Assembly (NCBI GenBank): GCA_937139435.1
Contig: CAKZPX010000194.1
Coordinates: 1-24,152 of the forward strand
DNA length: 24,152 bases
Reading direction: 5' to 3'
From: an uncultured bacterium
Lineage (GTDB): Bacteria > Hydrothermota > Tepidihabitantia > Tepidihabitantales > Tepidihabitantaceae
Part shown: positions 13,643 to 24,152 of the stretch, in pieces
Layout: each line of letters starts with the position of its first letter
How positions within the stretch are numbered: position 1 is the stretch's first letter
Position numbers and translations under genes: made by a program
The notes under the pieces: generated by a model
Databases searched by the model: none
The model's input: only the letters and a program-made list of their open reading frames with translations
What the model was told of the DNA's origin: nothing

Positions 13643-16600
13643 TTAAGAAAACAAGGCGGTAAGCTCCCGGAAGATATTTTCTCCGGCAAAGCCTTTTATA
13701 TCAATGGCACCGGAACGACAGTTGGCAGCACAGGCGCCACACCCCTTACAGAGCGCCGGATTGACCACCGCCGCATACCGGCCCTGACGCTCATCAACCA
13801 GTTTCACCTCAATCGCCCGGTAGGCACAGAGATTCTCACACATATGACAGGCAGAACAGCGCTGGGGATTGACCACCGCCTGATAGGGCTCAGCCGCAAC
13901 AAAATCCCGGGATAGGACCGTTACTGCCCGGGCCGAAGCCGCCTGCGCCGAAGCGATTGTCTCATCAATAAATTTAGGATAATGGCACAGACCGGCAAAG
14001 AATACACCATCCGTGGCAAAGTCAACCGGACGCAGTTTCGCATGCGCCTCCAGAAAGAAGCCATCCTGGTGCAATGGCACCTTGAGCATCTTCCCCAGTT
14101 CTCCCGCACCCTCCTGGGCAACAACCCCAGCAGAAAGCACAACCAGCTCCGGCGTCAGTTTTATTGTCGTTTCCAGAACCGGCTCAAAAAATTCTACCTG
14201 CAACCGGTCTCCGGCAAAACTGACCATCGGCTCCTGCTCCGGCGTGTAACGGATAAAAATAACCCCCTTTTCCCTTGCCCGGCGATAGAAATCCTCTTTG
14301 AAACCGTAGGTGCGGATGTCACGATAAAGGATATAAACATCCATCTCCGGATTGATCTCTTTCAGCGCCAAGGCGTTTTTGATCGCCTCAACACAGCAGA
14401 TGCGGGAGCAGTAGGGACGAGCCTCATTTCTGGAACCGGCACACTGAATCATCACCACCGACCTGACCTGACGCAGGCGCTCCGGGGTGCGGGCGATTAT
14501 TTCCTCTAACTCCTTCTGGGTCCTGACCTGCTCTGATTTGCCGTAAAAAAACTCCTCGGGCTGGCGGTAGCGGGCACCGATTGCGAGGATTACCACGCCA
14601 TGCTTTATCCGCTCATTATTACTTAATGTCGTCTCATAAGAGCCAACAAACCCATCAATCTGACGCACGGTTGTGCCGGTAAATACCTTAATCCGCTGAT
14701 GCTCCATCACCCGGCGCACCATCTCTTCCAGTCGCTGCTGGATGTCATCACCCTCTATTGTCCGGTACAGTGTTCGGGCAACCCCGCCCAGTTCCGCTTC
14801 CTTTTCCACCAGGTACACATCAAACCCGGCATCTGCTAACGCCAGCGCTGATGCCATTCCGGCAATACCACCACCAATCACCAGCCCGGCCTTTGTTACC
14901 GGAAGCCGCACCGACACCAGTGGCTCCTGCCGTCGCACCCGGGCAACCGCCATCCGCACCAGTTCCTTTGCCTTTTCCGTTGCCCGGTCGGGATCGTCAT
15001 GCACCCAGGAACACTGGTCACGGATGTTGGTCATGGCAAAAAGATGGGGGTTAAGCCCTGCCTCGGCAACCGTTGCCTGGAAAAGCGGTTCATGGGTGCG
15101 GGGAGAACAGGAGGCAACAACCACCCGGTTGAGCCGGTATTCCTTTATCCGATTCTTTATCTTCTCCAGACTGTCTGCCGAACAGGAATAAAGGTTTTCC
15201 TCTGCAAAAACAACACCGGGCAGTGTCCGGGCTAACTCAACAACCTCGGGCACCCGGACAATACCGCCGATATTAATCCCGCAATGGCAGACAAACACCC
15301 CGATCCGGGGTGCGGTGAAAACCATCGGTGCCACCTCGGTCTGCACATCCGCTATCTTCACCGCATCATAATTCAAGGCACCGGGTAACGCCTTAACCGC
15401 AGCGGCTGATGCCTGAACCACTGTCTCCGGAATGTCCTTTGGTCCCTGCCCGCTGCCGGCAAGGAAAATCCCGTTGCGTCCGGCGCGCACCGGCTCCCAC
15501 AGGTCCGCCTCCGGATAGGAAAATGAGTTGAGCGGTAACCCCAGCCGACGGTTCAAAATCAAAACCTGCTCCGGCGGCACAAAACCGCAGGAAAGAACCA
15601 CCATATGAAACCGCTCCGAGCGCTGTCCCTGTTCCGTGGCATAGCGCAAAAACAGGTCCCGGGTCTCCGGGTCTTCGCGCACCTCTGCCACCCGGGCGTG
15701 CACAAACCTAACACCGTACTGACGTTCGGCCCGTTCAATATAACGGTCAAAGTCCTTACCAAACGCCCGCATGTCCATATAGAAAACTGCGGGCTCAATC
15801 TGCCGGCTGTGTTCTTTCGCAATTACCGCCTCCTTTGTCGCATACATACAGCAGACCGAGGAACAGTATTCCCGACCGATAGACCTATCCCGGGACCCAT
15901 AACATTGAATCCAGGCAATCTTCTTCGGCTCTTTTTTATCACTCGGACGCTGGATATGCCCGCCAAAAGGGCCAGAGGCGGACATAATCCGCTCAAACTC
16001 CAGACTGGTTACCACATTGGGGTAGCGACCGTAACCGTATTCCGGACGCACCGCACCGGACACAACCTCACTACCCGGGGCAATGATAATTGAAGAAACA
16101 GAAAGAGTGATTTCCTCGTCCTTTTCCTCGTAATTAATTGCGCCCGCCTTACAAACCCGGGCACAATTGCCACAGCGGTCCCGGGTAAATTTCAAACAGT
16201 TTGCCCGGTCAATTGCTGGCGCATTGGGCACCGCCTGGGCATAAAGCCGGTATATCGCCCGACGCTGGGAAAATCCGCCCTCAAACTCGTTGGGCAGACG
16301 GACCGGACACTTTTCCAGACAGTCACCACAACCGGTGCATCTGGTCAGGTCAACGGAACGGGCATAACGCTTGAGCTGAACAGTAAAGGCGCCCGGTTCC
16401 CCGGTTACAGACTGCACCTCGGTAATGGTCAAAAGCCGGATGTTCGGATGACGGGCACAGGTAACCAGTTTCGGACTGAGGATGCACATTGAGCAGTCGT
16501 TAGTCGGAAAGGTTTTGTCCAGACGCGCCATATACCCGCCAATTGCTGGCGACCGGTCAACTAAATACACCTGGCACCCGCTATCTGCGAGGTCCAGCGC

Positions 16601-16657
16601 CGCTTGGACACCACCAATCCCGCCGCCAACAACTAAAACCGCCTGCCGATCCTCCAT
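13643..16657 (-). CDS. hdrA: HdrA-family FAD/Fe-S protein with two FAD modules (about 1004 aa)
   Basis: Start moved to ATG 16657 (GAGGGAG SD). GGGIGG...LDKTFPTNDCSMC, inserted ferredoxin, LEFER, CSSVCCMYATK; IGVFVCHCG domain; second GGGIAG and CSRICCVEAIK; C-terminal 2x[4Fe-4S]. Confidence 0.93.
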   Translation of the reverse strand: MEDRQAVLVVGGGIGGVQAALDLADSGCQVYLVDRSPAIGGYMARLDKTFPTNDCSMCILSPKLVTCARHPNIRLLTITEVQSVTGEPGAFTVQLKRYARSVDLTRCTGCGDCLEKCPVRLPNEFEGGFSQRRAIYRLYAQAVPNAPAIDRANCLKFTRDRCGNCARVCKAGAINYEEKDEEITLSVSSIIIAPGSEVVSGAVRPEYGYGRYPNVVTSLEFERIMSASGPFGGHIQRPSDKKEPKKIAWIQCYGSRDRSIGREYCSSVCCMYATKEAVIAKEHSRQIEPAVFYMDMRAFGKDFDRYIERAERQYGVRFVHARVAEVREDPETRDLFLRYATEQGQRSERFHMVVLSCGFVPPEQVLILNRRLGLPLNSFSYPEADLWEPVRAGRNGIFLAGSGQGPKDIPETVVQASAAAVKALPGALNYDAVKIADVQTEVAPMVFTAPRIGVFVCHCGINIGGIVRVPEVVELARTLPGVVFAEENLYSCSADSLEKIKNRIKEYRLNRVVVASCSPRTHEPLFQATVAEAGLNPHLFAMTNIRDQCSWVHDDPDRATEKAKELVRMAVARVRRQEPLVSVRLPVTKAGLVIGGGIAGMASALALADAGFDVYLVEKEAELGGVARTLYRTIEGDDIQQRLEEMVRRVMEHQRIKVFTGTTVRQIDGFVGSYETTLSNNERIKHGVVILAIGARYRQPEEFFYGKSEQVRTQKELEEIIARTPERLRQVRSVVMIQCAGSRNEARPYCSRICCVEAIKNALALKEINPEMDVYILYRDIRTYGFKEDFYRRAREKGVIFIRYTPEQEPMVSFAGDRLQVEFFEPVLETTIKLTPELVVLSAGVVAQEGAGELGKMLKVPLHQDGFFLEAHAKLRPVDFATDGVFFAGLCHYPKFIDETIASAQAASARAVTVLSRDFVAAEPYQAVVNPQRCSACHMCENLCAYRAIEVKLVDERQGRYAAVVNPALCKGCGACAANCRSGAIDIKGFAGENIFRELTALFS
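14999..15028. repeat. 30-bp exact repeat shared by the two large HdrA paralogues, copy 1
   Basis: ATGCACCCAGGAACACTGGTCACGGATGTT, identical at 20357-20386; encodes NIRDQCSWVH. Confidence 0.9.
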
Positions 16658-16659
16658 AA

Positions 16660-17331
16660 CTACTCCCTCTTTTCCAGCATCTGTAATGATTCCGGATAGG
16701 AATACCCGTCCGCTATCGCCAGTTCCCTGATTACCTGCATAATCCGGCTGATGCTTACACCCTGAGGACACCGGCTATCACACCGGAAGTGAATGGCACA
16801 GATATCCTTAAACTCATCGGCAAACGCCTCCGCCTTTAACCCCAGGTTGACCTTGCGGATAAACTTGCGCGGGTCTTTAGCCGGATCAAGCAGCGCCTCC
16901 GGACAGACCGCAGTGCAGGAACCACAGATAAAACAGGCGGACAGACCGGGCACCGCCTCCAGCACCTGGCGGCGAAATTCCCGGTCAATCTTCTTTACCT
17001 CCTCAACCGCAGCCTTTTCCTGCTCTCTGATCTTCACCACCGCATTACACACCTCACCGATGTTCACCCCCTGGGGACAGCGGTTAAGACAGGTGGAATG
17101 ATAGGAACAGAGCCAGACAAACTCCGACTTATAAACCTCCTCTTTCATCCCCAGTATCGCCATCCTGATCAACCGCCGGGGATTGTACTTCTCTTCCAGC
17201 CGGCGCACCGGACAGGAAGCGGTACATCCACCACAGGCAAAGCAGTTCATAAAGGTGTTATCACCAAAACGGGCGGCAATCCGTTCCTTGAACTCGGTGT
17301 CCAGCTGATGCAAAATAATTTCTTCTGCCAT
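16660..17331 (-). CDS. Tandem HdrC-like iron-sulfur protein (two repeats, about 223 aa)
   Basis: Start moved to ATG 17331 (GAGGG SD). Each repeat has CxxCxxCxxxCP, a PRxxIR motif, then CxxHxxCxxxCPQGV. Confidence 0.85.
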   Translation of the reverse strand: MAEEIILHQLDTEFKERIAARFGDNTFMNCFACGGCTASCPVRRLEEKYNPRRLIRMAILGMKEEVYKSEFVWLCSYHSTCLNRCPQGVNIGEVCNAVVKIREQEKAAVEEVKKIDREFRRQVLEAVPGLSACFICGSCTAVCPEALLDPAKDPRKFIRKVNLGLKAEAFADEFKDICAIHFRCDSRCPQGVSISRIMQVIRELAIADGYSYPESLQMLEKRE

Positions 17332-17335
17332 TGTC

Positions 17336-18496
17336 TTATCCCTCACCAATCGTAGTGAACTCATCCTCCCGGAAGGTGGTCAGGGGCAAAGGTTCTTCAA
17401 GCGCGCGCCCGGAAAGGTAGCCAAATGCGTTCTGGGCGTTGCGTGATACCTTTTTAAACAGGACGCTTAATCCGATACTTACCGGACAGGAGTCTTCGCA
17501 AATTCCGCACTGAACACAGGAGGTCATCATGTGGTTCATCCGGGTAATGTGGAAAAGCAGGGTACCAGATGGCATCCGCACCATGCCTTTACTCCGGGAG
17601 AACCGGACAAACTCATCCTGGTTCCGGTTGAGGGCATCAGATTCAAAGAAACATTCCCGACAGTAACATACCGGACACACCTTCATACAGTTGTGACAGT
17701 TAAGGCAGTCCGCAAAATATCGGACAACATTCTCCGCGCCCAGCAACCGCTCATCCAGTTCCCTGATTTGTGTCCGGATCGCCTCCTCCCGTGCCCGGCG
17801 CAGTTTGTTAATAAACTCCACCCGCGCTGCCGGTTCATCCTGCCGTGGCTCTAATGGAACAGGAAAGGTCGGGGCAAGGAGCACGGCACCCTTTTCACCG
17901 GCGGTGATGACCAGGAGTTCCTCATCCGGATTCATACCAAGGAATCCAAACATAATGTCAAATACAAGTGGCGCGGGAAATTCACAGAGCTGGCAGGCAT
18001 GACGCAGACGGCTGTCACTGGTATAGGCATCCTGGTTTCTAATAAAGTTGTTATTAAAATCAGAAGCGCCTTCAGCGATCTGGAGGAACTGCGCGGTTTT
18101 GTAGGTTCCAGGACAGTCAATACCAACCAAAACTATCCCATCAAGTGACACCTGTTGCAGTTTAACCAGTTCCACTACCGCCCTTAATTCACAGGGACGC
18201 AGCAGAACGCCAATCTTTGATTTCGCACCCGGGTCCGGAGCAATTTCCGCGATGATTCCTGCTCCATTTATCCCCATAGCGGGCAAAAGCGGTGCGGTCG
18301 CCATTATCTTTTCTGGCGCCGATACAAGCGAGCGGGTTACCGCACCGGTCTTTGATATTGCCGGGACTAAAATGGCATCCAGTTTTTTCTCTTCCAGCCA
18401 GTGGGCAAAAACCTTTTTGAGCGTTGCCTCGGGATCGCTCCCCGGCACCGCCAATTCATAGATTGTCCTGGAACCTGTCTTTACTGTACCATCCAC
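17336..18496 (-). CDS. FdhB/FrhB-family (FlxC-like) iron-sulfur protein, about 386 aa
   Basis: Start moved to GTG 18496 (GGAGG SD, 1 nt after mvhD stop). LRPCELRA, GIDC, RHACQLC, CLNCHNCMKVCPVCYCREC, CVQCGICEDSCP. Confidence 0.8.
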   Translation of the reverse strand: MDGTVKTGSRTIYELAVPGSDPEATLKKVFAHWLEEKKLDAILVPAISKTGAVTRSLVSAPEKIMATAPLLPAMGINGAGIIAEIAPDPGAKSKIGVLLRPCELRAVVELVKLQQVSLDGIVLVGIDCPGTYKTAQFLQIAEGASDFNNNFIRNQDAYTSDSRLRHACQLCEFPAPLVFDIMFGFLGMNPDEELLVITAGEKGAVLLAPTFPVPLEPRQDEPAARVEFINKLRRAREEAIRTQIRELDERLLGAENVVRYFADCLNCHNCMKVCPVCYCRECFFESDALNRNQDEFVRFSRSKGMVRMPSGTLLFHITRMNHMMTSCVQCGICEDSCPVSIGLSVLFKKVSRNAQNAFGYLSGRALEEPLPLTTFREDEFTTIGEG

Positions 18497-18497
18497 G

Positions 18498-18917
18498 CTA
18501 CACCTCCCAGAGGGTCTTGAACGGGCTCGGCCCTTTTTGCCGGAGTTTCTCGGTGAATTCGGTAACGGTGTCCGCAAACCTCTTGCCCTCGGCTGCTGAT
18601 ATCCAGCGCAAAAGCACCCGGTCAGTATCCAGCCCCAGTGACTCCATGATTGAGTTAAATAACACCATCCGCCGCCGGGTCTTGTAATTGCCGGAAACAT
18701 AATGGCAGTCACCAGGATGACAGCCACCAATGAACACCCCATCCGCTCCCTCCAAAAGCGCCCGGAGAATATAAACCGAATCCACCGCGCCGGAGCACAT
18801 CACCCGGATCGGACGCATATTGGGCGGATACTGCAGCCGGGAGGTTCCAGCAAGGTCAGCACCGGCATATGTACACCAGTTACACAGAAAGCCAATAATC
18901 TTCGGTTCATAAGCCAT
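18498..18917 (-). CDS. mvhD: MvhD/FlxD-type [2Fe-2S] subunit
   Basis: FLCNWCTYAGADLAG, RVMCSG, GCHPGDCHY, WISAAEG; ATG 18917 with AAGGAG SD. Confidence 0.96.
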   Translation of the reverse strand: MAYEPKIIGFLCNWCTYAGADLAGTSRLQYPPNMRPIRVMCSGAVDSVYILRALLEGADGVFIGGCHPGDCHYVSGNYKTRRRMVLFNSIMESLGLDTDRVLLRWISAAEGKRFADTVTEFTEKLRQKGPSPFKTLWEV

Positions 18918-18970: not shown

Positions 18971-21900
18971 TTATAACCCTTCTTCAATCATCGTCAGCAA
19001 CTGCCGGGACTCAAAACCCTGAAGTTCAATGGCGCTGGACGGACAGGCAACCGCACAGGCACCGCACCCCTGACAGAGTACCGCCGTAACCTCGCTTTTG
19101 CCGGTCGCCGGATTAATCCGCGCCGCCTCGTACTGACAGATGCGCTCACACACACCACAGCCCGCACACCAGCGGGTATTAACCTTCGCCACCACCGCCT
19201 GGGTAGTAATCTGATTCTGGCTGATAATCTGCGTTGCCCGGGCAGAAGCTGCCAGTGCCTGGGCAATTGTCTCACTGACGAAGCGGGGGCTGTGACACAT
19301 CCCGGCCATAAATATCCCCGCAGTGTTGAAGTCAACCGGACGGAGTTTGGCATGCGCCTCCAGGAAGAAGCCGTCCTCGTTTAACGGCACCTTTAACAGT
19401 TTTGCCAGTTCCTCGTTGCCCGCATCCGGAACAACGCCAGTGGAAAGCACCAGAAGGTCAGGAACCACCACCACCGGTCGTCCGAGTACCGTGTCGTAAG
19501 CCCGGACATAAACCCGGTCGTCTGTCCGCTCCAACCGCAACTGGATTTTTTCATCATCGGGGTCAAAACGGATAAACATCACCCCTGCCTGTCGCGCCTT
19601 TTGATACAACCCCTCCCGGAACCCGTAGGTGCGGATGTCACGGTAGAAGATATAAACCTGACGCCTGGGATTTTCCATTTTTAGCCGGAGGGCATTTTTT
19701 ATCGCCTCGGTGCAACACACCCTTGAACAGTAAGGATGCTCAGCATTGCGTGAACCAACACACTGAATCATCGCTACGGTCTTGATATCCTGAAGGTTTT
19801 CTGGATGCCGTGCCAGTTCCTCTTCCAGTTCGGTCTGGGTTTTAACCATCGGGTCAACACCGTAAAAGAATTCCCTGGGCTCATACGCCTTTGCACCCAC
19901 CGCCACAACAAAGACGCCATGCTGTAATGACATTTCCTCCCCGTTATTAGCAAACCTGAGCGTGGTAGTATAGTTGCCAAGATAGCCGGACACGGCGGTA
20001 ATTCGGGCATTGGTATAAACCTTGATTAACGGCTCCGCCCGTACATCCCGCTCCAGACGGGCAAGTAATTCCGCACCAGAACGCTCCAGCACCGACCCAT
20101 CAAAGTAATCAACAACACTCTGAATCCGCCGGAGATAACCACCAAGTTCCTGTTCCCTCTCAATTAAAAATACCTCAAACCCCTGTCGGGCAATTGCCAG
20201 AGCCGAAGTCATTCCGGCAACACCACCACCGATAACCAGCGCCTTCTGTGTCACTGGCTGAAGAGATGTGGTGAGTGGTTTCAGGCGTCGGGCATTCGCC
20301 ACCGCCATTCGCACCAGTTCCTTCGCCTTTTCCGTTCCCTTTTCCGGCTCCTGCATATGCACCCAGGAACACTGGTCACGGATGTTCGCCATCGTGAACA
20401 GATGCGGGTTAAGTCCGGCTGCGGCAACCGTCTCCTGGAAAAGTGGCTCGTGGGTGCGGGGTGTGCAGGAGGCAACCACAACCCGGTTGAGTCGATACTC
20501 TTCAATAATCCGGCGCATCTTCTCCTGTGTATCCTGGGAACAGGTAAACAGATTCTCTTCCGCATACACAACATCAGGCAGGGTGCGAGCATATTCAACA
20601 ATCTCCGGCACGCTGAGGATTCCACCGATATTAATCCCGCAGTTACAGATAAATACACCGATGCGTGGCGGTTCGCCGGTCACATCCCGCTCCGGTGGCA
20701 GGGTTCTCCTGGTAACCAGCGTCCCCCGTGCCGGGGCAAGAAGCGTCGCTACGCCGGCGGCACAGGCGGTCGCCTCAGTCACAGTTTCCGGAATGTCCTT
20801 GGGTTCGGTAAGCACTCCACAGGCATAAATACCGGGTCGGGTCGTGGCAACCGGATAATCCGGATCAGTAAGGATAAACCCCAGAGAGTCGGTCTTAACC
20901 CCGAGCTGCTGGAGGAGTTCGGTAGTCTTCCTATCCGGCACCAGGGCGCTGGACAAAACAACAAGGTTGTAGGTCTCATCGTGCAGCGTGCCATCCTCAT
21001 CCTCGTAGGTCAGGAGCAGGTCGCCATTCTCCTGAGGCGTGACACGTGATATTCGGGAGCGCCGGTAGACCACGCCATACTCTTTGTGTGCCCGCTCGTA
21101 GTAACCCTCAAAACCCTTTCCAAAACAGCGCATGTCAATATAGTAGATATGGCAGTCAAGATCGCCACCGCAATGCTCTTTGGCGATCACCGCCTCCTTT
21201 GTTGCGAACATGCAGCAAACCGATGAGCAGTAATAGCGATCCTTGTTCCGGGAACCAACACACTGCACCCAGGCGATTTTCCTCGGTTGTGTTCTATCAC
21301 CGGGACGCAGGACATGACCCTGGTATGGTCCGGTTGCCGAGAGGATGCGCTCAAATTCTAAACTGGTAATTATATTCGGCTGCCTTCCATAAAGGTAATC
21401 CCACTCGCCCCTGGGTTTGTATTCAATAAAACCACCCGCTAAAACCACACCGCCAACTTTGATTTCAATCTCCTCCGGCTTATCGGTGTGCTCAATCGCC
21501 CCGGCTTCACAGGCAGCAACACACTGGAGACACTCGGAGCAAACCCCGCAGTCCAGACAGCGCTGGGCTTCCCTAACCGCCTGCTCTTCATCGTAGCCCA
21601 AACTTATCTCCGCCCACGCCGCATCACCAGTTGTTACCGCGCGCTCCCGCTTCGGCTCCGGTTCCCGGGGTCGCTGGATAATATCGCCCCGCCGCTGAGC
21701 GGCAGAGTCCTCCAGTTTCGCCGGTTCTGGTTTCTGTTCCGGACGCCCGGCACTTAAATCCGCACCGGAAAGGAAGCGGTCAATAGAAATTGCCGCCTCA
21801 TGACCGTGAGCCACCGCCTCAATTACCGATGCCGGTCCGGAAACCGCATCACCGCCAGCAAAGACACCAGTGAGTCCATTCACCTCTAATGTTACCGGGT

Positions 21901-23551
21901 CAACTTTAAAAGTTCCACCCGGTCCCCGCTCAATGCCATCAAACCCTTCACCAGCAACCTGCTGTCCGATGGCAAGAATAACGACATCAGCCGGTAACTG
22001 AGTTTTACATTCTGGATTAAACTGCGGGTTAAACCGTCCCTCCGCATCAAACACCTGGTAACACTCAATTAATTCTAAACCGGTTACCCGACCGTTATCG
22101 CCAACAATTTCTTTTGGACCGCGGGAGTTAACAATCTGAATACCATCGGCAAGCGCCTCTTCAATCTCCCATTCATGTGCCGGCATCTCATCCCGTTTCT
22201 CCAGACAGACCATTGTCACCTCACGGGCGCCCAACCGACGGGCACACATTGCGCAGTCCACCGCCACATTACCACCACCAATCACCACCACCCGCCGGGC
22301 ATTCTGCACCAGGGGCAAAGCGATCTCGGACACGCCCTCTCCCGCACCATTCTCCAGCGACTCATTAACCGACCGCAAAAACTCAATCCCGTGTAATACG
22401 CCCTTCAACTCCATCCCCGGGATGTTAATGGTTCTACTCCGATGCGCACCGACAGCCAGAAATACCGCATTAAACCCCTGTTCAAAAAGCCCTTTCAGCT
22501 CCGCAGTGGTATTTATTCGCACACCGGTCTTTAACTCTATCCCGGTGCTCAACAACGCGCTTATTTCCCGGTTCAAAACCGCTCTGGGCAACCGGTAGGC
22601 AGGAATCCCCCAGCGCATCATCCCCCCAGGTTTGTTACTCGCCTCCAGCACAGTAACCTGATACCCTTTCAACCGCAAGTCCAGGGCACAGGTTAACCCT
22701 GCTGGTCCAGCACCCACCACCGCCACCCGTTCCTTTCTCTCCTGTGCCGGTGTTGACCATCCTATCTCTCCACCCTCTCGCTCTATCCAGTCATCAAGAA
22801 ACCGCTTCAATGTCCTGATCGCCACCGGCTGGTCTACCTCCTGCCGGTTACATTTCTCCTCACAGGGGTGATGACACACCCTGCCACACACACCGACAAA
22901 CGGCAACCTTTCCTGCACCAGTTTATAGGCATCCTTAAACTTGCCCTGTCGGATCAGCGCCACATAACCCTGGGCATTTACACCTGCGGGGCAGGCGAGC
23001 CGACACTGTGCCCGCTTCCCGCTCTTATCAATCGCCACCGCATTAGGAATTGCCTGCGGATAAAGTTTATAAACCGCATTACGGGTTGATATCCCCTGAT
23101 TATAACTGTCCGGTACAACCACCGGGCAATTCTTCACACACTCCATACATCCGGTGCATTTATCCAGCAGCACATAACGCGGCTTCTGAAGAATCCGGAC
23201 AGAAAAATTCCCGGGTTCACCTTTCAACTCCAGCAACTCAGCATTGGTAATCAACTGAATGTTGGGATGCCTTCCCGCAGTAACCAGCTTGGGCGCCAGG
23301 ATGCACATTGAACAATCGTTCGTCGGAAATGTTTTGTCCAGCATCGCCATCGTCCCGCCAATCGCTGGCGAACGGTCAAGGAGAAATACCTTAAAACCGC
23401 TCTCAGCCAGTTCCAGGGCGCTCTGAATCCCGGCAATACCAGCACCAACCACCAGCACCGCACCGGTCACCGTGGCACCGGCAGCGGGTCGGGCATTGTT
23501 TCCAGAACCCGCAGTAGTGTGTTCGGTGCTATTTACCGCTTGCTCCTGCAC
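18971..23551 (-). CDS. hdrL: HdrL-type protein: double-FAD HdrA with an inserted GltD-like NAD(P)H oxidoreductase module (1526 aa)
   Basis: Colinear with 13643-16657 plus an insert with CRLACP...CGRVCHHPCEEKC, GAGPAGL, GGGNVAVDCA, FAGGD..SGP; GTG start, AGGAG SD overlapping the upstream stop. Confidence 0.88.
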   Translation of the reverse strand: MQEQAVNSTEHTTAGSGNNARPAAGATVTGAVLVVGAGIAGIQSALELAESGFKVFLLDRSPAIGGTMAMLDKTFPTNDCSMCILAPKLVTAGRHPNIQLITNAELLELKGEPGNFSVRILQKPRYVLLDKCTGCMECVKNCPVVVPDSYNQGISTRNAVYKLYPQAIPNAVAIDKSGKRAQCRLACPAGVNAQGYVALIRQGKFKDAYKLVQERLPFVGVCGRVCHHPCEEKCNRQEVDQPVAIRTLKRFLDDWIEREGGEIGWSTPAQERKERVAVVGAGPAGLTCALDLRLKGYQVTVLEASNKPGGMMRWGIPAYRLPRAVLNREISALLSTGIELKTGVRINTTAELKGLFEQGFNAVFLAVGAHRSRTINIPGMELKGVLHGIEFLRSVNESLENGAGEGVSEIALPLVQNARRVVVIGGGNVAVDCAMCARRLGAREVTMVCLEKRDEMPAHEWEIEEALADGIQIVNSRGPKEIVGDNGRVTGLELIECYQVFDAEGRFNPQFNPECKTQLPADVVILAIGQQVAGEGFDGIERGPGGTFKVDPVTLEVNGLTGVFAGGDAVSGPASVIEAVAHGHEAAISIDRFLSGADLSAGRPEQKPEPAKLEDSAAQRRGDIIQRPREPEPKRERAVTTGDAAWAEISLGYDEEQAVREAQRCLDCGVCSECLQCVAACEAGAIEHTDKPEEIEIKVGGVVLAGGFIEYKPRGEWDYLYGRQPNIITSLEFERILSATGPYQGHVLRPGDRTQPRKIAWVQCVGSRNKDRYYCSSVCCMFATKEAVIAKEHCGGDLDCHIYYIDMRCFGKGFEGYYERAHKEYGVVYRRSRISRVTPQENGDLLLTYEDEDGTLHDETYNLVVLSSALVPDRKTTELLQQLGVKTDSLGFILTDPDYPVATTRPGIYACGVLTEPKDIPETVTEATACAAGVATLLAPARGTLVTRRTLPPERDVTGEPPRIGVFICNCGINIGGILSVPEIVEYARTLPDVVYAEENLFTCSQDTQEKMRRIIEEYRLNRVVVASCTPRTHEPLFQETVAAAGLNPHLFTMANIRDQCSWVHMQEPEKGTEKAKELVRMAVANARRLKPLTTSLQPVTQKALVIGGGVAGMTSALAIARQGFEVFLIEREQELGGYLRRIQSVVDYFDGSVLERSGAELLARLERDVRAEPLIKVYTNARITAVSGYLGNYTTTLRFANNGEEMSLQHGVFVVAVGAKAYEPREFFYGVDPMVKTQTELEEELARHPENLQDIKTVAMIQCVGSRNAEHPYCSRVCCTEAIKNALRLKMENPRRQVYIFYRDIRTYGFREGLYQKARQAGVMFIRFDPDDEKIQLRLERTDDRVYVRAYDTVLGRPVVVVPDLLVLSTGVVPDAGNEELAKLLKVPLNEDGFFLEAHAKLRPVDFNTAGIFMAGMCHSPRFVSETIAQALAASARATQIISQNQITTQAVVAKVNTRWCAGCGVCERICQYEAARINPATGKSEVTAVLCQGCGACAVACPSSAIELQGFESRQLLTMIEEGL
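20357..20386. repeat. 30-bp exact repeat shared by the two large HdrA paralogues, copy 2
   Basis: Identical to 14999-15028. Confidence 0.9.
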
Positions 23552-23563
23552 TGTTACACTCCT

Positions 23564-24152
23564 TTAAGTATCTATCATCTTCAAAAGCGCCTCTTTTGTC
23601 CAATTCTTAACCGTTATCGCTCCGGAAGGACACGCTGCCGAACAGGCACCGCACCCCTCACAGAGCGCACTCTGCACCACCGCCTTACCCAGAACCGGGT
23701 CAACCTTCACCGCCTGATAGGCACAACTCCGCTCGCAGTTACCACAGGCGACGCAAACCTCCTCGTCAACCTGGGCAATCACCGGCTCGTGGAAAAGTTC
23801 GCTTACAGAAAACATCCCCAGAACCTTTGCCCCGGCGGCTGATGCCTGGGCAACCGTCTCCGGAATGTCTTTCGGTCCCTGCCCGGCACCGGCAAGGAAA
23901 AACCCGGCGGTCAGTGTCTCCACCGGTCGCAACTTCGGATGTGCCTCGGTTAAAAACCCGAAACTATCAACCGGTATTTTCAGCCGCCGGGCTAAACTTA
24001 CCCCGTCCGGACTCGGTACTATCGCTCCTGCTAGAACCACCATATCCGTTTCAATCTCCACCTTCTTCCCCGCCAGGGTATCACTCGCCCATACCACCAC
24101 CTTGTCACCGCGCCGGAAGATTTTTGAAACCTTTCCTCGCAGATAGGTTACC
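23564..24152 (-). CDS. hdrA: HdrA-family protein, C-terminal part (5' end outside the window)
   Basis: Frame is open to the window edge (VTYLRGKVSKIFRRGDKVVVW...); EAHPKLRPVET, GAGQGPKDIPETVAQAS, C-terminal 2x[4Fe-4S]. Confidence 0.92.
   Translation of the reverse strand, partial: VTYLRGKVSKIFRRGDKVVVWASDTLAGKKVEIETDMVVLAGAIVPSPDGVSLARRLKIPVDSFGFLTEAHPKLRPVETLTAGFFLAGAGQGPKDIPETVAQASAAGAKVLGMFSVSELFHEPVIAQVDEEVCVACGNCERSCAYQAVKVDPVLGKAVVQSALCEGCGACSAACPSGAITVKNWTKEALLKMIDT

What the first reader, a model, noticed from the sequence alone, without database searches (positions are those of the whole stretch)
16660..17331. Duplicated HdrC-like protein with the same Cys-to-His change in both repeats
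Seen: CFACGGCTASCP...CSYHSTCLNRCP and CFICGSCTAVCP...CAIHFRCDSRCP; His codons differ (CAT 17098-17100, CAC 16789-16791) and the repeats are otherwise diverged, so His appears selected. Known: HdrC has two all-Cys [4Fe-4S]; loss of this Cys gives [3Fe-4S] in SdhB/FrdB, and His-ligated [4Fe-4S] occurs at electron entry or exit points of hydrogenases. Inference: a four-cluster wire with two higher-potential clusters, possibly defining the high-potential branch in place of HdrBC.
Basis: partly seen in the sequence, partly recalled or inferred. Interest (0 to 1): 0.75.

Follow-up and report, generated by a model that had tools for sequence, protein, structure and literature searches.

The report
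Tandem HdrC-like protein with conserved histidines
This is a real, strongly conserved iron-sulfur "wire" protein made of two HdrC-like halves, each with one cluster-binding cysteine replaced by histidine; the same motif gives high-potential three-iron clusters in known ferredoxins, and here it sits in a conserved eight-gene heterodisulfide-reductase operon that does include normal HdrB and HdrC.

Summary
Window 16663-17331 (-) encodes a 223-aa tandem HdrC-like protein. In each half the second motif reads CxxHxxCxxxCP, and the His aligns with the second Cys of solved HdrC.

The His is under strong selection:
- 115 of 115 full-length homologues and 73 of 73 complete species-level loci from several phyla keep both His.
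- The His codons vary synonymously.
- All His-bearing domains form one clade, so there was one Cys-to-His change before the duplication, not two parallel changes.

The reading "in place of HdrBC" does not hold. The contig break hides hdrC-hdrB-hdrA, which lie on the adjoining contig of the same genome. HdrB is upstream in 31 of 33 loci with enough flank.

The protein belongs to a conserved operon: hdrC-hdrB-hdrA-hdrL-mvhD-fdhB-like-hdrC2(His)-type II hdrA.

The exact motif CxxHxxC(x)nCP is already characterised in mycobacterial and Rhodopseudomonas ferredoxins. There it binds a [3Fe-4S] cluster with a non-ligating His and unusually positive potential. I therefore favour one [4Fe-4S] plus one [3Fe-4S] per half. 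A His-ligated [4Fe-4S] is the main rival.

This scan noted the same feature on at least four other genomes. I rate it a new variant of a known kind, of moderate interest.

The parts
16663..17331 (-). CDS of the tandem HdrC-like protein HdrC2(His), 223 aa (stop at 16660-16662)
   Evidence: Pfam Fer4_8 and Fer4_17 and NCBIfam TIGR03290, each in two stretches. AF2 model pLDDT 90.4, pTM 0.85. Only HdrC chains match in the PDB.
17008..17331 (-). HdrC-like half 1 (residues 1-108)
   Evidence: Aligns to HdrC residues 13-114 of solved chains. Self-alignment of the two halves gives 37% identity.
16663..17007 (-). HdrC-like half 2 (residues 109-223)
   Evidence: Residues 117-205 align to 7bkb_C residues 27-115. 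Second stretch of TIGR03290 and NF041779.
17209..17244 (-). Motif 1 of half 1, CFACGGCTASCP (C30-P41), all-Cys
   Evidence: C30, C33, C36, C40 and P41 are invariant.
17074..17109 (-). Motif 2 of half 1, CSYHSTCLNRCP (C75-P86); His78 codon CAT at 17098-17100
   Evidence: C75, H78, C81, C85, P86 and Q87 are invariant.
16900..16935 (-). Motif 1 of half 2, CFICGSCTAVCP (C133-P144), all-Cys
16765..16800 (-). Motif 2 of half 2, CAIHFRCDSRCP (C178-P189); His181 codon CAC at 16789-16791
   Evidence: C178, H181, C184, C188, P189 and Q190 are invariant.
13646..16657 (-). Type II (double thioredoxin-reductase-domain) HdrA, 1004 aa; starts 2 nt after the HdrC2(His) stop
   Evidence: Pfam. Three stretches match solved HdrA, E 3.6e-202. 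It follows HdrC2(His) in 57 of 62 loci.
17339..18496 (-). FdhB/ElpB-like flavo-iron-sulfur protein, 386 aa from GTG 18496; ends 4 nt before HdrC2(His)
   Evidence: Start placed by comparison with L007. Matches solved FdhB/ElpB chains 9t1s_M (4e-30), 8rvu_E and 7bkb_E. Lies directly upstream in 67 of 68 loci.
18501..18917 (-). MvhD ([2Fe-2S] adaptor), 139 aa
   Evidence: PF02662 FlpD, E 1.3e-53. Start at ATG 18917. Present upstream in 64 of 66 loci.
18974..23551 (-). [quoted passage not shown]
   Evidence: Fer4_20 and Pyr_redox_2 at residues 179-583 inside HdrA domains. Naming follows PMC2702500 and PMC12054007.
23567..24152 (-). C-terminal 194 aa of type I HdrA, cut by the contig end
   Evidence: Maps to residues 467-660 of the L007 HdrA at 91% identity. 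The N-terminal 447 aa lie on contig C352 after hdrC and hdrB.

Best explanation
HdrC2(His) is a soluble electron-transfer subunit built from two HdrC/SdhB-type dicluster ferredoxin domains, with four cluster sites in all.

In each domain the first site is a normal four-Cys [4Fe-4S]. The second site keeps three Cys (C75, C81 and C40 in half 1; C178, C184 and C143 in half 2) and has an invariant His where the fourth Cys would be.

[quoted passage not shown] In that case the imidazole sits at the vacant corner, is not an iron ligand, and makes the potential much more positive than that of an all-Cys cluster.

The protein is a fixed component of a conserved operon: hdrC-hdrB-hdrA(I)-hdrL-mvhD-fdhB-like-hdrC2(His)-hdrA(II). 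It works alongside a normal HdrBC, not instead of it.

I infer that it docks on the type II HdrA encoded directly after it, at the position HdrC occupies on HdrA. It would carry that flavin's higher-potential electron through the four sites toward the FdhB-like flavoprotein and MvhD, so linking HdrA modules inside one supercomplex.

Shown: the motifs, the homology, the invariance, the single origin and the synteny. Inferred: the cluster type, the potentials, the docking partner and the direction of electron flow.
For: Position and conservation of the His:
- It sits at the ligand position of solved HdrC.
- It is invariant in 115/115 proteins and 73/73 complete loci, with synonymous codon turnover.
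- The His clade is monophyletic with support 0.976. Phe71/Phe174 co-vary with it: 100% in the clade against 13% in all-Cys relatives.

Fold:
- The compact two-domain model is confident (pLDDT 90.4, pTM 0.85).
- It matches only HdrC chains in the PDB.

Precedent for the motif:
- M. marinum Fdx1, Fdx5, Fdx8 and Fdx10, M. tuberculosis Fdx/FdxE and the R. palustris HaA2 ferredoxin carry CxxHxxC(x)nCP.
- Those examined were isolated as [3Fe-4S], whether purified aerobically or anaerobically.
- Measured potentials are -31 mV (Mtb Fdx) and +230 mV (Fdx5) (PMC6237146).
- Crystal structures show the His not ligated to the cluster (PMC9868604).

Synteny:
- FdhB-like directly upstream in 67/68 loci.
- MvhD upstream in 64/66.
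- Type II HdrA downstream in 57/62.
- HdrB upstream in 31/33.

Hints on the partner:
- FdhB-like genes occur without HdrC2(His) as second copies in about ten loci.
- By the paper's description, the S. fumaroxidans HdrABC/HdrL cluster has an FdhB-like protein but names no tandem HdrC or second HdrA (PMC5947623).
- Together these point to type II HdrA as the specific partner.

Each half covers only HdrC residues about 13-115, so the roughly 70-residue C-terminal part of HdrC has no counterpart.
Against: - No spectroscopy or structure exists for any member, so the cluster type rests on analogy alone.
- The precedent proteins are small single-cluster ferredoxins from aerobes. They showed no detectable sequence similarity to this protein in the PDB search.
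- In those ferredoxin families the position also tolerates Asn, Tyr, Ser, Thr and Phe. Here the His never varies across several phyla and both halves, which would fit a direct chemical role such as iron ligation.
- The docking partner is inferred only from gene order and co-occurrence.
- The one complex prediction tried (FdhB-like with HdrC2) gave no answer.
- In two Clostridia MAG loci the downstream gene is HdrL rather than type II HdrA.
Confidence: 0.55

Rival explanations
1. The His is a true iron ligand. Each half then carries two [4Fe-4S] clusters, one of them with 3 Cys + 1 His ligation, as in the distal cluster of [NiFe]-hydrogenases and cluster N5 of complex I. This would give a pH-dependent, somewhat raised potential and mark entry or exit points of the wire.
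For: - The His sits exactly at a ligand position.
- It is absolutely invariant in both halves over several phyla. In [3Fe-4S] ferredoxin families the same position varies among His, Asn, Tyr, Ser, Thr and Phe (PMC6237146).
- The hosts are strict anaerobes, in which a labile fourth iron would survive.
- His-ligated [4Fe-4S] clusters are established in hydrogenases (general knowledge; also stated in PMC6237146).
Against: - Every characterised protein with this exact motif was isolated as [3Fe-4S], also under anaerobic purification.
- Crystal structures show the imidazole turned away from the cluster or hydrogen-bonded elsewhere.
- Known His-ligated [4Fe-4S] sites use other spacings (HxxxCxxC..., HxxC...), not CxxHxxC. 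This point is from recall.
Confidence: 0.3
2. HdrC2(His) is the partner of the FdhB-like flavoprotein and takes the place that FdhA or ElpA holds in Fdh-Hdr and Elp-Hdr complexes. On this reading it is not an HdrC-equivalent of type II HdrA. It would extend the FdhB iron-sulfur chain toward a soluble acceptor or donor.
For: - The FdhB-like gene is directly upstream in 67 of 68 loci, here with a 4-nt gap.
- The protein is a clear FdhB/ElpB homologue.
- In solved Elp-Hdr, ElpB pairs with a truncated, iron-sulfur-only ElpA (PMC12350162).
Against: - FdhB-like genes occur without HdrC2(His) in second mvhD-fdhB-like pairs within the same loci.
- By the paper's text the same holds for the S. fumaroxidans cluster.
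- HdrC2(His) is unrelated to FdhA or ElpA.
- The complex prediction gave no answer, which counts neither way.
Confidence: 0.25
3. The three-Cys + His sites are not plain relays. They would be reactive or sensing sites, for example a cluster with an open iron corner that binds a thiol or persulfide substrate, or that gates electron flow by protonation of the His.
For: - The His is invariant, and Phe71/174 and Gln87/190 are conserved next to the site.
- The nearest all-Cys relatives include HdrC-like domains fused to a response regulator and to a histidine kinase (P0126, P0127), so the domain type is used for sensing elsewhere.
Against: - There is no extra pocket-forming domain; each half is a minimal ferredoxin core.
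- The operon already encodes a catalytic HdrB.
- No precedent is known for catalysis at this position of an HdrC/SdhB-type domain.
Confidence: 0.07

Closest known systems
HdrC of methanogen HdrABC (solved: 5ODC, 7BKB, 8RVU/8RVV chain C)
   Same: The dicluster ferredoxin core is homologous (E 1e-16; Foldseek prob 1.0). It has the CxxCxxCxxxCP first motif and the same spacing to the second motif, and it occurs in an hdr operon.
   Different: - The second motif has His for the second Cys.
- The unit is duplicated in tandem.
- Each half lacks the roughly 70-residue C-terminal part of HdrC.
- The flanking genes are fdhB-like and type II hdrA, not hdrB.
- The TIGR03290 score of 123 is below the 160 cutoff.
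- A genuine all-Cys HdrC is encoded separately in the same operon.
CxxHxxC(x)nCP [3Fe-4S] ferredoxins (M. tuberculosis Fdx Rv0763c and FdxE Rv1786, M. marinum Fdx1/5/8/10, R. palustris HaA2 ferredoxin 4ID8)
   Same: The motif is identical: His at the second-Cys position followed by C...CP. These proteins have a characterised [3Fe-4S] cluster, a non-ligating His and unusually positive potentials.
   Different: They are single-cluster proteins of 60-70 aa that serve P450s in aerobes. They showed no detectable sequence similarity to this protein in the PDB search at E 0.01. This is a functional analogy, not family membership.
C-terminal domain of SdhB/FrdB (succinate dehydrogenase / fumarate reductase iron-sulfur subunit)
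   Same: The domain type is the same (PRK05950 E 2e-10, TIGR00384). In SdhB the second motif lacks the same Cys and binds the [3Fe-4S] centre (established knowledge).
   Different: SdhB carries a hydrophobic residue there, not His. It also has an N-terminal [2Fe-2S] domain and a membrane anchor partner. Scores here are far below the family cutoffs.
HdrABC/HdrL clusters of sulfate reducers and syntrophs (Desulfobacterium autotrophicum HdrL loci; Syntrophobacter fumaroxidans Sfum_0819-0824)
   Same: Both have hdrABC, hdrL with an NAD(P)H module, mvhD and an FdhB-like iron-sulfur protein in one cluster. The S. fumaroxidans proteins were detected by proteomics.
   Different: The published descriptions name neither a tandem HdrC-like protein nor a type II HdrA. 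Those two genes are the additions in the operon described here.
All-Cys tandem HdrC-like proteins (about 300 aa, uncharacterised; e.g. P0125, P0139, P0177, P0202)
   Same: Two HdrC/QmoC-type domains in one chain.
   Different: All four motifs are all-Cys, the proteins are longer, and they fall outside the His clade in the domain tree.

Membership tests
HdrC (TIGR03290 CoB--CoM heterodisulfide reductase subunit C) | Whole-protein score above the curated cutoff (160 bits) | tested here: not met
   123.3 bits, split over two stretches.
HdrC (TIGR03290 CoB--CoM heterodisulfide reductase subunit C) | Two all-Cys CxxCxxCxxxCP motifs binding two [4Fe-4S] clusters | tested here: not met
   The second motif of each half is CxxHxxCxxxCP.
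HdrC (TIGR03290 CoB--CoM heterodisulfide reductase subunit C) | Encoded next to, and partnered with, HdrB (CCG domains) | tested here: not met
   Its neighbours are the FdhB-like gene and type II hdrA. HdrB lies five genes upstream, beside its own all-Cys HdrC.
HdrC (TIGR03290 CoB--CoM heterodisulfide reductase subunit C) | C-terminal extension beyond the ferredoxin core (about residues 115-184 of solved HdrC) | tested here: not met
   The halves align only to HdrC residues about 13-115. That this extension contacts HdrB is recalled, not tested.
Pfam Fer4_8 / Fer4_17 (HdrC/SdhB-type 4Fe-4S dicluster domain) | Score above the gathering threshold, with helical spacing between the two motifs | tested here: met
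   Fer4_8 scores 56.6 bits (cutoff 27) and Fer4_17 56.2 bits (cutoff 22.2), each in both halves.
CxxHxxC(x)nCP [3Fe-4S] ferredoxins | Motif with His at the second-Cys position followed by C...CP | tested here: met
   Motif definition from PMC6237146.
CxxHxxC(x)nCP [3Fe-4S] ferredoxins | Sequence homology to the single-cluster ferredoxin family | tested here: not met
   No such chain appears among PDB sequence hits at E 0.01 or among the Foldseek hits.
CxxHxxC(x)nCP [3Fe-4S] ferredoxins | Cluster is [3Fe-4S] with a non-ligating His | not testable with these tools
   Needs EPR or Moessbauer spectroscopy, or a structure.
SdhB/FrdB iron-sulfur subunit | Score above the family cutoff and an N-terminal [2Fe-2S] domain | tested here: not met
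   PRK05950 scores 40 bits against a cutoff of 228. Only the C-terminal dicluster part aligns.

The most novel reading that the evidence does not exclude
The two three-Cys + His clusters form the high-potential exit of the type II HdrA flavin. HdrC2(His) would then hard-wire that exit, via the FdhB-like flavin and MvhD, to the bifurcating flavin of a second HdrA-type protein (HdrL or type I HdrA). The eight-gene complex would run two flavin-based bifurcations in series between NAD(P)H, ferredoxin and a disulfide, with the His-tuned clusters setting the potential step between the stages.
Probability: 0.2. Interest if true: 0.75.

Novelty: new variant of a known kind. Interest (0 to 1): 0.45.

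Why it matters
Flavin-based electron bifurcation depends on how the potentials of the iron-sulfur relays next to the flavin are set. This family offers a natural, strictly conserved ligand swap in the HdrC-type relay, present twice in one small soluble protein. The normal all-Cys HdrC is encoded in the same operon as a built-in comparison.

The family is widespread in uncultured anaerobes (WOR-3, Thermoplasmatota, Aerophobetes, Sumerlaeota and others) and belongs to a large Hdr operon with three kinds of HdrA that nobody has purified. The 223-aa protein is easy to express. It could show whether the HdrC fold can hold [3Fe-4S] or His-ligated clusters and what that does to the potential.

For annotation, these genes should not be called heterodisulfide reductase subunit C.

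Tried and rejected
- Complex prediction of the FdhB-like protein with HdrC2(His): verdict "no answer", score 0.00. It is not evidence either way.
- A natural FdhB-like::HdrC2 fusion seemed possible in G175, where a 630-aa open frame was reported. ORF inspection showed the FdhB-like gene in another frame, ending just before the HdrC2 start, so there is no fusion.
- P0152 (454 aa; one His-type domain followed by unrelated sequence) looks like a chimeric or frameshifted call and was not used.
- Foldseek against the PDB returned only HdrC chains at modest TM-scores. No closer fold and no His-bearing homologue appeared.
- No coordinates of the AF2 model are available. I could not measure the His geometry or the cluster-to-cluster order of the four sites.
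- Literature searches for "HdrC-like", for HdrC with histidine, and for WOR-3 with heterodisulfide reductase found no description of this variant.
- I looked for F420 biosynthesis to guess the substrate of the FdhB-like protein. cofH was not found in the 90%-complete MAG, and there was only a weak F420_ligase hit, so this is inconclusive.
- I rejected the idea of two convergent Cys-to-His changes: the His domains are monophyletic.
- I rejected the idea that the operon lacks HdrB: that impression is an artefact of the contig end.

Full report
**What is in the sequence**

The finding's coordinates hold one minus-strand gene. Its ATG is at 17331 and its stop at 16660-16662, giving 223 aa. The start lies 4 nt after the stop of the upstream gene and is preceded by GGTGAGGGA. 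The next gene starts 2 nt after its stop.

His78 is CAT at 17098-17100 and His181 is CAC at 16789-16791.

Pfam places two Fer4_8/Fer4_17 dicluster domains. NCBIfam gives two stretches of HdrC (TIGR03290, 123 bits, below the 160 cutoff) and two of the HdrC-like head of QmoC. It also gives weak hits to GlpC, GlcF and the C-terminal domain of SdhB. The halves are 37% identical.

Against solved structures the only relatives are HdrC chains. In those alignments the His pairs with the second Cys of HdrC's second motif, CSYHSTCLNRCP against CTTCYSCQERCP. Each half aligns only to HdrC residues about 13-115, so the C-terminal third of HdrC has no counterpart.

An AlphaFold2 model built on 63 homologues is confident and compact (pLDDT 90.4, pTM 0.85). 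In the PDB it matches only HdrC.

**Is the histidine selected?**

The evidence says yes.
- All 115 full-length homologues in the 90%-clustered protein collection (44-80% identity) have the signature C-H-C-H. The other five are truncated.
- In a 63-sequence alignment H78 and H181 are invariant, as are all 14 Cys and the four Pro of the CP pairs.
- A scan of one genome per species returned 78 loci from WOR-3, Thermoplasmatota, Aerophobetes, Sumerlaeota/BRC1, Clostridia and Fibrobacterota MAGs, among others. All 73 complete genes have both His. Four further genes are cut or split. One locus (L090) is an ordinary all-Cys HdrC and not a member.
- The His codons vary synonymously: CAT/CAC 44/29 at the first site and 47/26 at the second. 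Cys to His needs two base changes.

Among the best 150 cluster representatives of a 1.8-billion-protein library, 97 are single all-Cys HdrC-like proteins and 38 are all-Cys tandems. Only seven carry His, and all seven belong to this family.

In a domain tree, all 47 His-bearing domains sampled form one clade with no Cys domain inside it (support 0.976), and the first and second halves are interleaved within it. So there was one Cys-to-His change, then the duplication, then strict retention in both copies. "The same change in both repeats" is inheritance, not convergence.

Phe71/Phe174 is a second clade-specific invariant: 100% in the clade against 13% in all-Cys relatives.

**Genomic context**

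The window is a whole contig (C194) of a 1.69-Mb, 90%-complete MAG, and the operon runs off its end.

Contig C352 of the same genome carries four genes in a row. They are a PyrK/NfnA-like gene, an all-Cys hdrC (140 aa; CYQCGCCTSGCP ... CASCLVCGTRCP), hdrB (289 aa, two CCG domains) and the first 447 aa of an hdrA.

That fragment and the 194-aa HdrA tail at the window's end map to residues 1-447 and 467-660 of the HdrA of an 80%-identical relative. The two contigs therefore abut, with about 19 codons missing.

The full operon is hdrC-hdrB-hdrA(type I)-hdrL(type III, GltD insert)-mvhD-fdhB-like-hdrC2(His)-hdrA(type II). Long contigs of relatives show the same order.

Counts over the 78 loci, using only those with enough flank:

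| Neighbour | Position | Loci |
|---|---|---|
| FdhB-like | directly upstream | 67 of 68 |
| MvhD | before the FdhB-like gene | 64 of 66 |
| Type II HdrA | directly downstream | 57 of 62 |
| HdrB | within 10 kb upstream | 31 of 33 |

Within the phylum, the tandem protein was found in 18 of 19 sampled genomes of the window's family. It was found in none of the 16 sampled genomes from the other families of its order. Its presence in several distant phyla points to transfer of the module.

The reading "high-potential branch in place of HdrBC" therefore fails for the system as a whole. HdrBC is there, and HdrC2(His) is an addition.

**What the neighbours are**

- The upstream protein is a clear homologue of FdhB/ElpB of solved Fdh-Hdr and Elp-Hdr complexes (E 4e-30 to 2e-20). 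In those complexes the FAD of FdhB/ElpB feeds a chain of [4Fe-4S] clusters that reaches the bifurcating FAD of HdrA via MvhD/ElpC (PMC12350162).
- The downstream protein is a fused double HdrA. This type II architecture is described in methane-metabolising archaea (PMC12054007). BamE of class II benzoyl-CoA reductase has the same architecture. There one thioredoxin-reductase domain bifurcates and passes its high-potential electron through a nearby [4Fe-4S] to an HdrBC-like subunit (bioRxiv 10.64898/2026.04.10.717634).
- HdrL was named in Desulfobacterium autotrophicum (PMC2702500). An HdrABC/HdrL cluster with MvhD and an FdhB-like protein is abundant in Syntrophobacter fumaroxidans grown with sulfate (PMC5947623). 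That published description includes neither a tandem HdrC nor a second HdrA.
- FdhB-like genes also occur without HdrC2(His), as second mvhD-fdhB-like pairs in about ten of the 78 loci.

These co-occurrence patterns make type II HdrA the more likely specific partner of HdrC2(His). This is inference. The one complex prediction I ran gave no answer.

**How it most likely works**

In the ferredoxin-type dicluster fold, the first three Cys of one motif plus the CP-Cys of the other bind each cluster (established knowledge). The His site is therefore the cluster held by C75, C81 and C40, and in the second half by C178, C184 and C143. It is the same site that is a [3Fe-4S] centre in SdhB/FrdB.

- Ferredoxins with exactly CxxHxxC(x)nCP are characterised: M. 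marinum Fdx1, Fdx5, Fdx8 and Fdx10, M. tuberculosis Rv0763c and Rv1786, and R. palustris HaA2 (4ID8).
- All those examined contain [3Fe-4S], whether purified aerobically or anaerobically.
- Their potentials are unusually positive: -31 mV for the M. tuberculosis protein and +230 mV for Fdx5 (PMC6237146).
- Crystal structures show the His not bound to the cluster (PMC9868604).

On that basis I favour one [4Fe-4S] plus one high-potential [3Fe-4S] per half, about 0.5-0.55. A His-ligated [4Fe-4S] comes next at about 0.3. The absolute invariance of the His speaks for the rival, because in the ferredoxin families Asn, Tyr, Ser, Thr or Phe can stand at this position.

Either way the site should be more positive than an all-Cys cluster. 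This suits a position on the exergonic branch leaving a bifurcating flavin. The tools here cannot decide between the two.

**Comparison with what is known, and novelty**

The protein works like HdrC but fails the membership tests. It scores below the cutoff, its second motif is not all-Cys, it has no C-terminal extension, and it has no HdrB neighbour. It should be annotated as HdrC-like.

The tandem layout is not unique, since all-Cys tandems exist. The motif chemistry has precedents. New here is their combination in the HdrC fold, its strict conservation, and its fixed place in a widespread, unpurified eight-gene Hdr operon.

I found no paper describing it. This scan had already flagged the same feature on at least four other genomes, and a follow-up confirmed the eight-gene operon on another WOR-3 genome.

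Verdict: a real feature and a new variant of a known kind. Interest is moderate (0.45), because a small, expressible protein would give a clean test of ligand tuning in an electron-bifurcating system.

Noticed in passing
L004 (own genome contig C352) 3-650 +, before hdrC at 647-1069: A PyrK/NfnA-like gene (NAD_binding_1 + DHODB_Fe-S_bind in relatives L007/L008) sits directly before hdrC-hdrB-hdrA. Together with the GltD/NfnB-like insert of HdrL it could form an Nfn-like NAD(P)H module. It is absent at this position in L009/L010.
   Followed up: partly
window 23564-24152 and L004 1932-3272: The type I hdrA gene is split by an assembly break between contigs C352 and C194, with about 19 codons missing. 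Any note on this window that says 'no HdrB' reflects the contig end.
   Followed up: yes
L019, L022, L024, L029, L037, L042, L044, L049, L052, L054 (downstream of type II hdrA): About ten related loci carry a second mvhD-fdhB-like pair after type II hdrA, without a second tandem HdrC. A Thermoplasmatota locus instead has mvhD-mvhG-mvhA-hycI there and ETF genes upstream.
   Followed up: partly
P0126 (445 aa) and P0127 (650 aa), nearest all-Cys relatives of the His clade: An HdrC-like dicluster domain is fused to a response-regulator receiver plus a GcvH-like domain (P0126) and to a PAS histidine kinase (P0127). This suggests the domain is used as a redox sensor in two-component systems.
   Followed up: no
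own genome G000 (whole MAG): The F420 FO-synthase subunit cofH (TIGR03551) was not found in the 90%-complete MAG, and only a weak F420_ligase-like hit lies on C139. The FdhB-like flavoprotein may therefore not use F420 here.
   Followed up: partly
L045 and L046 (Clostridia MAG contigs): In these two loci the gene after HdrC2(His) is an HdrL-type protein rather than type II HdrA. This is a variant operon layout.
   Followed up: no
window 17336-18742 (-): The mechanical ORF of 468 aa overlaps mvhD. Comparison with relatives puts the true start of the FdhB-like gene at GTG 18496 (386 aa). Likewise type II hdrA starts at ATG 16657, not at GTG 16771.
   Followed up: yes
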